A stretch of DNA of 64,000 bases from Giardia intestinalis (lineage: Eukaryota), in NCBI GenBank assembly GCA_000002435.2, contig CM018789.1; one strand, 5' to 3'. Shown in pieces: positions 60,001 through 64,000 of this stretch; the first letter of the stretch is position 1; the number at the start of each line of letters is the position of its first letter. A program made the position numbers.

Positions 60001-63000
60001 TGCGAGAAGGTCTGAGCCTTGAAGCGGCCGACATGCACACCCGGACGGAGCAGACACCGCAAGGAACGGCCGAGGAATGTACCAGACTGTGGATGCACCA
60101 ATAGAGAGGAGCCCCTAGTATGTAACCTACAACCAATCCTCGTCTCTGCACTGGCCAGGAACTGGTCGAGGCTTACTTGTGGGATTTCCAAGCGCATCTA
60201 CAGGCAGGGCCCCAGCACAGTATAATATGCTTTATACAGTGACGCGTTTACTATCTAAGTACACAGCTAAGTCTACGCCTTTCCTCTACAGAGGAACCAC
60301 CAGCAGAGGAAGCCCACAAGACCCCCGACTACAACGATGACTGCGACGGAGATACCAGCTATGGCCCCTGTGCTGAGGCCGCTCTTGTTCGTGCTTCCAC
60401 CAGTGCCTACTTCTGATTCTAAGCATATGACTGAACTACCAGATGATGACACACATTGCTTGCATCCAGAGATCTTCTCTGAGCACTTCATGCACGGGCC
60501 ATCAGTGGTATCGTCACCGTTTTCCTTGTAATACCCAGTGGCACAGGTCTTACACGAGCTTGCAGTACTGGGAGCACTGCACGTAGCACAAGTAGGATGA
60601 CATTCTGCACAGTTGCCATCAGTTGCTGCTAAGCCATTGGCACATGTCTGACACTTACCATTGCCTCCCTGTGCATTACTACACACCTGCTTACCAGGCT
60701 GTCTATCTGTCTGATAGCAACCGCCGTCCTTGAGGAAGTAGTTATCTTCACATTGAGTGCACACCCCATTACCCATTTTAGTACAGAAAGTTGCTCGTGA
60801 ACTGGCCGCACAGTCGCCGTTCAAGGGGGCCTGAGTGGAGGTCTTGCACTTTGAGCAGTATGCAGTTCCTCCTATCTGAGCCCCGCATGTCTCACAGCCA
60901 GTGCCATCTGCAGACACCTTGCACGCATCCCCGCAGGTGCCTCCGTTATTAGGATTGCTGTCATCTGTATATGTCAGTTTCTTGCCAGCAGGACAGGAAC
61001 TACACTGATTGTTGGCCGGCCCAACGCACTCAGCGCACTCAGGGCTGCATGCCTTACACTTCTTGTCATTATCTCCGTAGTATCCGCTGATGGTCGTGCA
61101 GTCAGGTACGCATTGGTTTGTAGGGGTGAGGTAGTCGCCGTCATTACATTCAGTGCAGACCTCGTTGTCTGTTTTGGGGTTATCACAGATCTTACAGTTG
61201 GGAGTATTACACTGTGTGTTAGAGGCCTTCTCGCAGCCGTCCTTCCCGCTGTTCAGGTTGAATCCCTCGTTGCACTCGCAGATGTCCGGGTTGGCCGCAG
61301 AGTTCGACGGGCAGCTGTCTCCGCAGCTTATTCCATTGAGTTGCACCTTCTGGCCGCCGTTACAGGTGAGGCACGTCTGGCCGTTGGGGCCCACAGCAGT
61401 GCAGGTCGCACAGCCGGCGCGCTTCAGCTCTTCTCCGCAGTCTGTGTTAGAGGCCTTCTCGCAGCCGTCCTTCCCGCTGTTCAGGTTGAATCCCTCGTTG
61501 CACTCGCAGATGTCCGGGTTGGCCGCAGAGTTCGACGGGCAGCTGTCTCCGCAGCTTATTCCATTGAGTTGCACCTTCTGGCCGCCGTTACAGGTGAGGC
61601 ACGTCTGGCCGTTGGGGCCCACAGCAGTGCAGGTCGCACAGCCGGCGCGCTTCAGCTCTTCTCCGCAGTCTGTGTTAGAGGCCTTCTCGCAGCCGTCCTT
61701 CCCGCTGTTCAGGTTGAATCCCTCGTTGCACTCGCAGATGTCCGGGTTGGCCGCAGAGTTCGACGGGCAGCTGTCTCCGCAGCTTATTCCATTGAGTTGC
61801 ACCTTCTGGCCGCCGTTACAGGTGAGGCACGTCTGGCCGTTGGGGCCCACAGCAGTGCAGGTCGCACAGCCGGCGCGCTTCAGCTCTTCTCCGCAGTCTG
61901 TGTTAGAGGCCTTCTCGCAGCCGTCCTTCCCGCTGTTCAGGTTGAATCCCTCGTTGCACTCGCAGATGTCCGGGTTGGCCGCAGAGTTCGACGGGCAGCT
62001 GTCTCCGCAGCTTATTCCATTGAGTTGCACCTTCTGGCCGCCGTTACAGGTGAGGCACGTCTGGCCGTTGGGGCCCACAGCAGTGCAGGTCGCACAGCCG
62101 GCGCGCTTCAGCTCTTCTCCGCAGTCTGTGTTAGAGGCCTTCTCGCAGCCGTCCTTCCCGCTGTTCAGGTTGAATCCCTCGTTGCACTCGCAGATGTCCG
62201 GGTTGGCCGCAGAGTTCGACGGGCAGCTGTCTCCGCAGCTTATTCCATTGAGTTGCACCTTCTGGCCGCCGTTACAGGTGAGGCACGTCTGGCCGTTGGG
62301 GCCCACAGCAGTGCAGGTCGCACAGCCGGCGCGCTTCAGCTCTTCTCCGCAGTCTGTGTTAGAGGCCTTCTCGCAGCCGTCCTTCCCGCTGTTCAGGTTG
62401 AATCCCTCGTTGCACTCGCAGATGTCCGGGTTGGCCGCAGAGTTCGACGGGCAGCTGTCTCCGCAGCTTATTCCATTGAGTTGCACCTTCTGGCCGCCGT
62501 TACAGGTGAGGCACGTCTGGCCGTTGGGGCCCACAGCAGTGCAGGTCGCACAGCCGGCGCGCTTCAGCTCTTCTCCGCAGTCTGTGTTAGAGGCCTTCTC
62601 GCAGCCGTCCTTCCCGCTGTTCAGGTTGAATCCCTCGTTGCACTCGCAGATGTCCGGGTTGGCCGCAGAGTTCGACGGGCAGCTGTCTCCGCAGCTTATT
62701 CCATTGAGTTGCACCTTCTGGCCGCCGTTACAGGTGAGGCACGTCTGGCCGTTGGGGCCCACAGCAGTGCAGGTCGCACAGCCGGCGCGCTTCAGCTCTT
62801 CTCCGCAGTCTGTGTTAGAGGCCTTCTCGCAGCCGTCCTTCCCGCTGTTCAGGTTGAATCCCTCGTTGCACTCGCAGATGTCCGGGTTGGCCGCAGAGTT
62901 CGACGGGCAGCTGTCTCCGCAGCTTATTCCATTGAGTTGCACCTTCTGGCCGCCGTTACAGGTGAGGCACGTCTGGCCGTTGGGGCCCACAGCAGTGCAG

Positions 63001-64000
63001 GTCGCACAGCCGGCGCGCTTCAGCTCTTCTCCGCAGTCTGTGTTAGAGGCCTTCTCGCAGCCGTCCTTCCCGCTGTTCAGGTTGAATCCCTCGTTGCACT
63101 CGCAGATGTCCGGGTTGGCCGCAGAGTTCGACGGGCAGCTGTCTCCGCAGCTTATTCCATTGAGTTGCACCTTCTGGCCGCCGTTACAGGTGAGGCACGT
63201 CTGGCCGTTGGGGCCCACAGCAGTGCAGGTCGCACAGCCGGCGCGCTTCAGCTCTTCTCCGCAGTCTGTGTTAGAGGCCTTCTCGCAGCCGTCCTTCCCG
63301 CTGTTCAGGTTGAATCCCTCGTTGCACTCGCAGATGTCCGGGTTGGCCGCAGAGTTCGACGGGCAGCTGTCTCCGCAGCTTATTCCATTGAGTTGCACCT
63401 TCTGGCCGCCGTTACAGGTGAGGCACGTCTGGCCGTTGGGGCCCACAGCAGTGCAGGTCGCACAGCCGGCGCGCTTCAGCTCTTCTCCGCAGTCTGTGTT
63501 AGAGGCCTTCTCGCAGCCGTCCTTCCCGCTGTTCAGGTTGAATCCCTCGTTGCACTCGCAGATGTCCGGGTTGGCCGCAGAGTTCGACGGGCAGCTGTCT
63601 CCGCAGCTTATTCCATTGAGTTGCACCTTCTGGCCGCCGTTACAGGTGAGGCACGTCTGGCCGTTGGGGCCCACAGCAGTGCAGGTCGCACAGCCGGCGC
63701 GCTTCAGCTCTTCTCCGCAGTCTGTGTTAGAGGCCTTCTCGCAGCCGTCCTTCCCGCTGTTCAGGTTGAATCCCTCGTTGCACTCGCAGATGTCCGGGTT
63801 GGCCGCAGAGTTCGACGGGCAGCTGTCTCCGCAGCTTATTCCATTGAGTTGCACCTTCTGGCCGCCGTTACAGGTGAGGCACGTCTGGCCGTTGGGGCCC
63901 ACAGCAGTGCAGGTCGCACAGCCGGCGCGCTTCAGCTCTTCTCCGCAGTCTGTGTTAGAGGCCTTCTCGCAGCCGTCCTTCCCGCTGTTCAGGTTGAATC

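What the first reader, a model, noticed from the sequence alone, without database searches (positions are those of the whole stretch)
60273..64000. VSP gene with a long array of perfect 228-bp tandem repeats
The window ends inside a vsp gene whose extracellular domain is built from at least 12 apparently identical 76-aa Cys-rich units, each with 8 Cys including CLTC and CEC pairs. The unit diverges only at the membrane-proximal copy. Perfect nucleotide identity across copies implies very recent expansion or continuing homogenisation. Repeat-containing VSPs are a minority of the repertoire, and copy number can differ between isolates and alleles. The repeat number, and hence protein size, is undetermined here because the array runs off the window.
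Basis: partly seen in the sequence, partly recalled or inferred. Interest (0 to 1): 0.6.

Follow-up and report, generated by a model that had tools for sequence, protein, structure and literature searches.

The report
Known Giardia surface-antigen gene CRP65
The window ends inside a Giardia variant-surface-protein gene that was described in 1996 (CRP65, also vsp27 or GL50803_38901), and its long run of identical 228-base repeats is real but is an ordinary, catalogued feature of this gene family.

Summary
Window 61215..64000 is 12.2 head-to-tail copies of a 228-bp unit with no mismatch. It lies in a minus-strand ORF that ends ...CRGKA* at 60273 and matches Pfam VSP at E = 2.7e-74.

Two details are wrong:
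- The 76-aa unit has 10 Cys, not 8.
- There is no diverged membrane-proximal copy. The last unit is intact and is followed abruptly by a 313-aa non-repeat region.

The gene is already known:
- The translated window is 100% identical to GenBank AAB06228.1, a 645-aa, 65.3-kDa "cysteine-rich protein" with 4 units.
- It is also the exact C-terminal 1241 aa of KAE8301901.1, "VSP with INR", from G. intestinalis WB C6 (1937 aa, 21 units, 195 kDa).
- Adam et al. 2010 list it as vsp27 = CRP65 (L39804, GL50803_38901, TR228, chromosome 1, Inr TAATGTT).
- The 417-aa product in that table is exactly leader + 1 unit + tail, so the first genome assembly had collapsed the array.

The missing part of the gene is therefore about 9 more units plus a 28-aa leader. 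The ATG is predicted about 2.1 kb beyond the window end.

It is an ordinary repeat-bearing VSP whose array evolves in concert. Nothing new; low interest.

The parts
60273..64000 (-). 3' 3,728 nt of the vsp gene CRP65 / vsp27 / GL50803_38901. This covers 1241 codons plus the stop. The 5' part, about 2.1 kb, lies beyond the window end, with the ATG predicted at window-equivalent coordinate ~66086.
   Evidence: The frame is open to the window end. Its translation is the exact C-terminal suffix of P0122 = KAE8301901.1, 1937 aa. It is 100% identical to P0001 = AAB06228.1. Pfam VSP PF03302 matches at E = 2.7e-74.
61215..64000 (-). Tandem array: 12.22 perfect copies of a 228-bp (76-aa, 10-Cys) unit, cut by the window end. 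The full-length database protein has 21 complete units plus a 12-aa partial unit.
   Evidence: TRF reports 100% matches. An exact periodicity test agrees. Unit composition is, and the count of 21 units in P0122 is.
60276..61214 (-). Non-repeat 313-aa C-terminal region shared by the subfamily. It holds 40 Cys, 14 CXXC and a GGCY motif, and includes the membrane anchor and tail.
   Evidence: Composition is. The region is 94.6% identical to VSP136-3 (P0121/P0123) and 76-84% identical to other VSPs.
60285..60362 (-). Hydrophobic transmembrane helix ([26 protein letters not shown]...).
   Evidence: The sequence is. The AlphaFold2 model has a helix at residues 617-642 of the 645-aa form, and these coordinates are converted from that.
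60276..60290 (-). The five C-terminal codons CRGKA, followed by the stop codon at 60273..60275.
60246..60260 (-). ACTTAGATAGTAAAC, starting 15 nt after the first base of the stop codon. It fits the extended vsp polyadenylation signal ACTPyAGPuTAGTPuAAPy; that consensus is from my own recall of the Giardia literature.
   Evidence: A regular-expression match on the sequence. Its function is inferred.

Best explanation
This is the 3' two-thirds of the Giardia intestinalis (assemblage A1, WB-type) variant-specific surface protein gene CRP65 = vsp27 = GL50803_38901 on chromosome 1.

The full protein is a type I membrane protein made of four parts:
- a 15-aa hydrophobic leader;
- a cassette of 21.2 identical 76-aa, 10-Cys units;
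- a 313-aa non-repeat Cys-rich region shared with the CRP136/VSP136 subfamily;
- one transmembrane helix ending in the 5-residue cytoplasmic tail CRGKA.

When it is the one VSP a trophozoite expresses, it would coat the cell with a protein of about 195 kDa. Its outer two-thirds would be a rod of disulfide-laddered furin-/EGF-like modules showing the same epitope 21 times. By analogy with VspA6, that repeat is expected to be the immunodominant part (inferred).

The perfect DNA identity of the units is best explained by concerted evolution. Unequal recombination, gene conversion or replication slippage within the array both homogenises it and changes the copy number (inferred). The window simply cuts the array after 12.2 units.
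For: Shown here:
- The array is perfect.
- The ORF has a CRGKA tail and a transmembrane segment.
- Pfam VSP matches at E = 2.7e-74.
- It is 100% identical over 100% of the query to AAB06228.1/O97448, 'cysteine-rich protein'.
- The same 90% cluster holds KAE8301901.1/XP_001708995.2, 'VSP with INR', 1937 aa, on a 1,485,438-bp contig. The window translation is its exact C-terminal 1241 aa, and it contains 21 units.
- Adam et al. 2010, Additional file 1, lists vsp27, CRP65, L39804, GL50803_38901, TR228, 228 nt, chromosome 1, Inr TAATGTT, 417 aa, 42.4 kDa, 52 Cys, 16 CXXC. A leader + 1 unit + tail construct reproduces all four of those numbers exactly.
- Concerted evolution: the P15 homologue P0002 has a 225-bp unit in 2.1 copies at 99% identity, in the same phase, and is about 75% identical to WB in DNA.
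- Modular frame: the first 20 leader residues are identical and the tail is 94.6% identical to VSP136-3, which carries a different cassette.
- Fold: the AlphaFold2 model has mean pLDDT 83 and consists of beta-hairpin modules. The best PDB fold matches are R-spondin furin-like repeats, ErbB Cys-rich domains and Pfs25 EGF domains.

From the literature:
- Repeats are immunodominant in VspA6, and copy number varies between alleles for vspA6 and vspC5 (PMC2996952).
Against: - The 5' end, leader and Inr are outside the window. They are taken from database and literature records, not from this sequence.
- No read-level data were available, so the exact copy number (21) rests on the PacBio-based reference annotation.
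- Expression of this particular VSP, immunodominance of its repeat and the recombination mechanism were not tested here.
- Fold matches are weak (best E = 5.6e-4, low TM-scores) because the query is a long rod.
Confidence: 0.95

Rival explanations
1. The array, or at least its length and perfect homogeneity, is an assembly artefact. Expansion, collapse or consensus polishing of a repeat could produce it, so the true gene might have far fewer units or non-identical ones.
For: - Public records of the same gene disagree. The first WB assembly has 1 unit (417 aa), the 1996 clone has 4 and the long-read reference has 21.
- Adam et al. warn that repeat numbers may have been condensed by assembly.
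- The two short-read Logan contigs shown (L001, L002) stop at the vsp 3' end, at window 60263 and 60312, so short reads cannot resolve the locus.
Against: - The repeat itself was found independently by clone sequencing (AAB06228.1, 4 identical units) and by the long-read assembly, with identical unit sequence.
- Known artefacts here go towards collapse, not expansion.
- A 4.8-kb array is within the span of PacBio reads. This last point rests on general knowledge, since no read lengths were retrieved.
- Near-perfect units are also seen in the P15 homologue at 99%.
Confidence: 0.04
2. It is a silent or decaying pseudo-VSP and not a usable antigen gene.
For: The new WB annotation has 208 pseudo-VSPs against 133 VSPs (PMC7000408). 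The 5' end was not seen in this window.
Against: - 1241 codons are open to the window end.
- The full database product starts with the hydrophobic leader MLVGFLLVCATVLAK and is annotated 'VSP with INR', not pseudo-VSP.
- Xu et al. kept as VSPs only genes with a predicted signal peptide.
- Adam et al. list the gene as complete, with Inr TAATGTT.
- It is a solitary gene among housekeeping genes, not part of a headless array.
Confidence: 0.03
3. It is another kind of Giardia Cys-rich membrane protein (HCMP, HCP or tenascin-like) and not a VSP.
For: Some close homologues carry the source names 'High cysteine membrane protein' or 'High cysteine protein' (P0002, P0007, P0008).
Against: It has the exact CRGKA end, the conserved membrane anchor and the extended 3' signal. 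Those same homologues, where their sequences were read (P0002), also end in CRGKA, so the names are annotation noise.
Confidence: 0.01

Closest known systems
CRP65 (Chen, Upcroft & Upcroft, Gene 1996;169:33; GenBank L39804 / AAB06228.1) = vsp27 = GL50803_38901
   Same: The leader, the 76-aa unit and the 313-aa tail are identical residue for residue. The repeat is 228 nt and the gene is on chromosome 1.
   Different: Only the number of units differs: 4 in the 1996 clone (65.3 kDa), at least 12.2 in this window, and 21 in the WB C6 long-read reference (194.7 kDa).
VSP136-3 / CRP136 subfamily (AAG37860.1; GL50803 'VSP with INR', 394 aa; CRP136 = vsp130 with a 120-nt repeat x22)
   Same: The first 20 leader residues, MLVGFLLVCATVLAKDSGKD, are identical. 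The tail is 94.6% identical over 312 aa. The design is the same: a conserved frame with a central repeat cassette.
   Different: The central cassette is unrelated. VSP136-3 has two roughly 41-aa units (TCFPGYT.NTDTKQCTKDPEAPCN...), and CRP136 has 120-nt units.
VspA6 / CRP170 (vsp67) and VspC5 (vsp90)
   Same: These are VSPs with more than 20 near-identical tandem units between the leader and the conserved 3' region. Copy number varies between alleles and the repeats are immunodominant (PMC2996952).
   Different: Their unit lengths are 195 and 105 nt with unrelated sequences. The variable copy number and antigenicity were shown experimentally for those genes, not for this one.
G. intestinalis P15 (assemblage E) 'High cysteine protein' P0002, and VSP AS7 (vsp21, 225-nt repeat)
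   Same: P0002 has the same architecture and the same repeat phase. Its 75-aa unit is 66% identical and the protein is 70% identical overall. It has TAATGTT at the ATG.
   Different: P0002 has only 2.1 units, in an older assembly that may be collapsed (its sequencing method was not checked here). No similarity was found in the 1.3 kb downstream of the gene, so synteny is not shown.

Membership tests
Giardia variant-specific surface protein (VSP) | C-terminal pentapeptide CRGKA directly before the stop codon | tested here: met
   The translation ends ...[12 protein letters not shown] with the stop at 60273..60275. It is the only such frame in the window.
Giardia variant-specific surface protein (VSP) | Conserved hydrophobic membrane anchor immediately upstream of CRGKA (a conserved C-terminal region of about 38 aa) | tested here: met
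   The sequence reads [35 protein letters not shown]. These positions are nearly invariant in an alignment of 74 VSPs. The model has a helix at residues 617-642.
Giardia variant-specific surface protein (VSP) | Cys-rich ectodomain (about 11-13% Cys) with many CXXC motifs | tested here: met
   The unit has 10 Cys in 76 aa and 2 CXXC. The tail has 40 Cys in 313 aa and 14 CXXC. The full protein is 13.0% Cys with 56 CXXC.
Giardia variant-specific surface protein (VSP) | Match to the Pfam VSP model PF03302 above the gathering score | tested here: met
   250.9 bits against a cut-off of 31.4, E = 2.7e-74.
Giardia variant-specific surface protein (VSP) | N-terminal signal peptide | tested here: inconclusive
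   It lies outside the window. The database protein whose last 1241 aa equal the window translation starts with MLVGFLLVCATVLAK, which is modelled as a helix at residues 2-14. It was kept as a VSP in an annotation that required a SignalP hit. No signal-peptide predictor was run here.
Giardia variant-specific surface protein (VSP) | Initiator element PyAATGTT at the start codon (present in many vsp genes, not all) | not testable with these tools
   The start codon is about 2.1 kb beyond the window end. Adam et al. 2010 record TAATGTT for vsp27. The P15 homologue has TTTAATGTTGG at its ATG.
Giardia variant-specific surface protein (VSP) | Mutually exclusive surface expression and switching (antigenic variation) | not testable with these tools
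   This needs expression data from clonal trophozoite lines.
CRP65 / vsp27 (GL50803_38901) specifically | Sequence identity with the deposited CRP65 product, a 228-nt repeat and a chromosome 1 location | tested here: met
   It is 100% identical to AAB06228.1. The period is 228. Adam et al.'s table gives CRP65, L39804, TR228, chromosome 1. The full-length product is encoded on a 1,485,438-bp contig. That this contig is chromosome 1 is my inference from its size.

The most novel reading that the evidence does not exclude
The repeat cassette is being actively homogenised by GC-biased gene conversion or unequal exchange. On this reading, the 4-unit record (1996 clone, from an isolate I could not identify here) and the 21-unit record (WB C6) reflect real, rapid size change of one antigen between closely related lines. 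The hint is codon composition. GC3 of the cassette is 0.80, against 0.52 in the rest of the same ORF and 0.46-0.61 in 14 neighbouring ORFs. The P15 homologue shows the same direction (0.71 vs 0.58). If true, vsp arrays would be a natural read-out of mitotic recombination and gene-conversion bias in an organism without observed meiosis.
Probability: 0.25. Interest if true: 0.35.

Novelty: already known. Interest (0 to 1): 0.1.

Why it matters
It matters little beyond bookkeeping. The gene was cloned in 1996, catalogued in 2010 and resolved to 21 units in the 2020 long-read reference.

It is a clean example of how tandem repeats in antigen genes are mis-sized. The records for this one gene give 417 aa, 645 aa and 1937 aa. 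Anyone using older Giardia gene models for proteomics, vaccine-antigen lists or VSP size statistics should take the product of this gene as about 195 kDa, not 42 kDa.

Tried and rejected
- Exact look-up of the 1937-aa product for its encoding contig found nothing on record, so the 5' end could not be read as DNA.
- A look-up through the neighbouring NEK kinase returned only short-read contigs. The two shown end at the vsp 3' end.
- A search with two repeat units returned only 5 distant partial VSPs and missed even P0001 and P0002. This is a limit of the word index and says nothing about distribution. Local BLASTP against the proteins already fetched was used instead.
- Exact look-up of 1-, 2- and 3-unit constructs found none in the collection, so no further copy-number variants could be documented.
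- A sequence search of the PDB gave no hit.
- The bacterial promoter/terminator scan is irrelevant for a eukaryote, and its single hit was ignored.
- Rfam and tRNA scans of the window found nothing.
- Literature searches for 'CRP65' and for '228 bp' found no paper in the held library. The 1996 paper itself is not held and is cited only through reference lists. A PubMed id that I recalled for a 1997 Genome Research paper on the CRP136 family is also not held.
- Synteny with P15 was tested on the 3' side and not found. I therefore call P0002 a homologue, not a positional orthologue.
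Full report
**1. Observation**

Tandem Repeats Finder reports a single array at 61215..64000. It has period 228, 12.2 copies, 100% matches, no indels and score 5572. A direct test shows that every base from 61215 to 63772 equals the base 228 positions downstream. The array is therefore 2786 bp, or 12.22 copies, and its 12 complete units are one and the same sequence. Nothing comparable occurs in the other 61 kb. The only other hit there is a degenerate 93-bp triplet inside an ankyrin-repeat gene.

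On the minus strand the frame is open from the window end to a stop at 60273..60275. It ends ...[35 protein letters not shown], and no other frame in the window ends in CRGKA.

- The 76-aa unit has 10 cysteines, not 8. It contains CATC, CLTC and CEC.
- No copy diverges at the membrane-proximal end. The last unit is intact, identity stops abruptly at 61215, and the 313 aa that follow resemble the unit only through the general Cys pattern (best BLASTP 39% over 41 aa, E = 0.001).

**2. What it is**

The last 465 codons match Pfam PF03302, Giardia variant-specific surface protein, at 250.9 bits and E = 2.7e-74. The rest of the window fits a Giardia chromosome arm. It carries NEK kinases with ankyrin repeats, an ankyrin-repeat protein, ClpB/Hsp104, an ISWI-type SNF2 ATPase, Utp14, Not3, an ABC transporter and a cathepsin. 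The vsp is a solitary gene among housekeeping genes.

A search of the protein collection gave 385 hits at E <= 1e-20; every listed hit that carries a source name is from Giardia. The best, P0001, is 100% identical over the whole query. It is UniRef O97448 / GenBank AAB06228.1, "cysteine-rich protein", 645 aa.

Its 90% cluster also holds P0122 = KAE8301901.1 / XP_001708995.2. This is "VSP with INR" from strain WB clone C6, 1937 aa, encoded on a 1,485,438-bp contig. The 1241 residues translated from the window are the exact C-terminal suffix of P0122. P0122 is built as a 28-aa N-terminus, 21 identical units and a 313-aa tail. P0001 is the same with 4 units and a calculated mass of 65.3 kDa.

Additional file 1 of Adam et al. 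2010 (PMC2996952) lists the gene. The entry reads: vsp27, clade II, name CRP65, GenBank L39804, gene GL50803_38901, feature TR228, 228 nt per repeat, 4 repeats, chromosome 1, complete, Inr TAATGTT, 417 aa, 42.4 kDa, 52 Cys, 16 CXXC. A construct of leader + one unit + tail gives exactly 417 aa, 42.4 kDa, 52 Cys and 16 CXXC. The first WB assembly had therefore collapsed the array to a single unit. The authors themselves warned about this artefact.

The original description is Chen, Upcroft & Upcroft, Gene 1996;169:33. I could see it only as a reference.

The current 21-unit model belongs to the annotation of the PacBio-based WB reference of Xu et al. 2020 (PMC7000408). From it, the ATG is predicted at window-equivalent coordinate ~66086, and about 9 more units lie outside the window.

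**3. Anatomy** (minus strand, 5' to 3')

- Outside the window: the leader MLVGFLLVCATVLAK, a 12-aa partial unit and about 9 further units.
- 64000..61215: 12.2 units.
- 61214..60276: 313 aa of non-repeat Cys-rich sequence with 40 Cys, 14 CXXC and a GGCY motif.
- About 60362..60285: the transmembrane helix.
- 60290..60276: CRGKA.
- 60275..60273: the stop codon.
- 60260..60246: ACTTAGATAGTAAAC. This fits the extended vsp polyadenylation signal as I recall it from the Giardia literature. That is recall, not a test.

**4. Relatives and evolution**

The frame is shared with other genes. VSP136-3 (P0121/P0123, 394 aa) has the same first 20 residues and a tail 94.6% identical over 312 aa, but an unrelated central cassette. 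P0003 has a similar leader (MLIGFLLVCATVLAK) and an 80%-identical tail, around a different short repeat. CRP65 is thus one member of a subfamily in which a conserved leader and 3' region carry interchangeable repeat cassettes.

The unit is not unique to this gene:
- A single copy at 66% identity is present in another WB VSP, P0024.
- Related units occur in assemblage E (P0002).
- Partial assemblage B proteins also carry them (P0124-P0126).

The P15 homologue P0002 has the same architecture and the same repeat phase at both array ends. Its unit is 225 bp, in 2.1 copies at 99% identity, and TAATGTT overlaps its ATG. Its DNA is only about 75% identical to WB.

Units are therefore much more alike within an array than between arrays that share the same boundaries. 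That is the signature of concerted evolution by unequal exchange, conversion or slippage. The mechanism itself is inferred, not shown.

No similarity was found between the 3' flanks of the two genes. Positional orthology is not established.

**5. How it most likely works**

It works as any VSP does. It is one of the 133 annotated intact VSP genes of WB (303 sequences in the earlier count). Only one is expressed on a trophozoite at a time, and switching is epigenetic (PMC2996952; PMC7000408).

An AlphaFold2 model of the 4-unit form, built with 73 homologues, has mean pLDDT 83. It consists of short beta-hairpins throughout, plus a C-terminal helix. Its best PDB fold matches are R-spondin furin-like repeats, ErbB Cys-rich domains and Pfs25 EGF domains. 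These matches are weak, with best E = 5.6e-4.

The 21 units would therefore form a long disulfide-laddered stalk presenting one epitope 21 times. In VspA6 the repeat is the immunodominant part, and size differences between related VSPs come from repeat number (citing Mowatt et al. 1994). I infer the same here. Expression, antigenicity and the recombination process were not testable.

**6. Rivals**

- Assembly artefact. The records disagree, with 1, 4 and 21 units, and the short-read contigs shown stop at window 60263 and 60312, right at the conserved vsp 3' end. However, the unit and its tandem arrangement were found independently by clone sequencing and by long reads, and the known errors go towards collapse. 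I give 0.04 to the array being spurious. Some doubt remains about the exact number 21.
- Pseudogene, 0.03. The frame is intact, and two independent annotations treat the gene as complete and leader-bearing.
- Non-VSP Cys-rich protein, 0.01. The CRGKA test is met.

**7. Novelty and score**

The finding is already known.

The only slightly unexplained point is the codon composition of the cassette. Its GC3 is 0.80, against 0.52 in the rest of the ORF and 0.46-0.61 in neighbouring genes. The P15 homologue shows the same direction. This could reflect GC-biased conversion during homogenisation, or simply the unit's amino-acid and codon make-up.

Interest 0.1.

Noticed in passing
window 61215..64000 versus 60276..61214: The repeat cassette has GC3 of 0.80 and GC of 0.62. 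The non-repeat part of the same ORF has GC3 of 0.52, and 14 other ORFs of the window have 0.46-0.61. The P15 homologue shows the same direction, 0.71 vs 0.58. This is unexplained. Biased gene conversion in the array is one idea.
   Followed up: partly
L001 and L002 (Logan short-read contigs), ending at window 60312 and 60263: Two independent short-read assemblies are 99.99-100% identical to the window from 46510 onwards. Both break within 40 nt of the vsp stop codon, at the 3' end that is conserved across the vsp family. Short-read data cannot place or size this gene.
   Followed up: yes
Adam et al. 2010 Additional file 1, row vsp27, compared with window 60273..64000: The 417-aa, 42.4-kDa, 52-Cys, 16-CXXC product listed for GL50803_38901 equals leader + exactly one unit + tail. 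The first WB assembly under-sized this protein by about 150 kDa.
   Followed up: yes
window 11526..11820, inside ORF 11440..12357 (-): A degenerate 93-bp tandem, 3.2 copies at 67% matches. It corresponds to ankyrin repeats of a 305-aa ankyrin-repeat protein.
   Followed up: yes
window 44716..52341 (-) and 58060..60057 (-): A 2541-aa ORF and the 665-aa ORF immediately downstream of the vsp (called as 615-621 aa in L001/L002) have no Pfam match. They are probably lineage-specific Giardia proteins.
   Followed up: no
L003 (P15 contig ACVC01000277.1) 10001..11476: The assemblage E homologue sits next to a cathepsin-type peptidase and a Helicase_C gene. Its 1.3-kb 3' flank shows no similarity to the window's 3' flank. 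Either the locus is not syntenic or the flank has diverged beyond blastn and tblastn detection.
   Followed up: partly
3' end of the vsp ORF (literature lead): PMC5192507 includes VSP-27 (GL50803_38901) in its alignment of vsp genes with putative miR2 (GlsR17-derived) binding sites. I did not check the site in the window.
   Followed up: no
(tool behaviour): A two-unit (152-aa) query to the large protein collection returned only 5 distant partial VSPs and missed the 100%-identical P0001 and P0122. An absence of hits for short repetitive queries should not be read as absence of relatives.
   Followed up: partly
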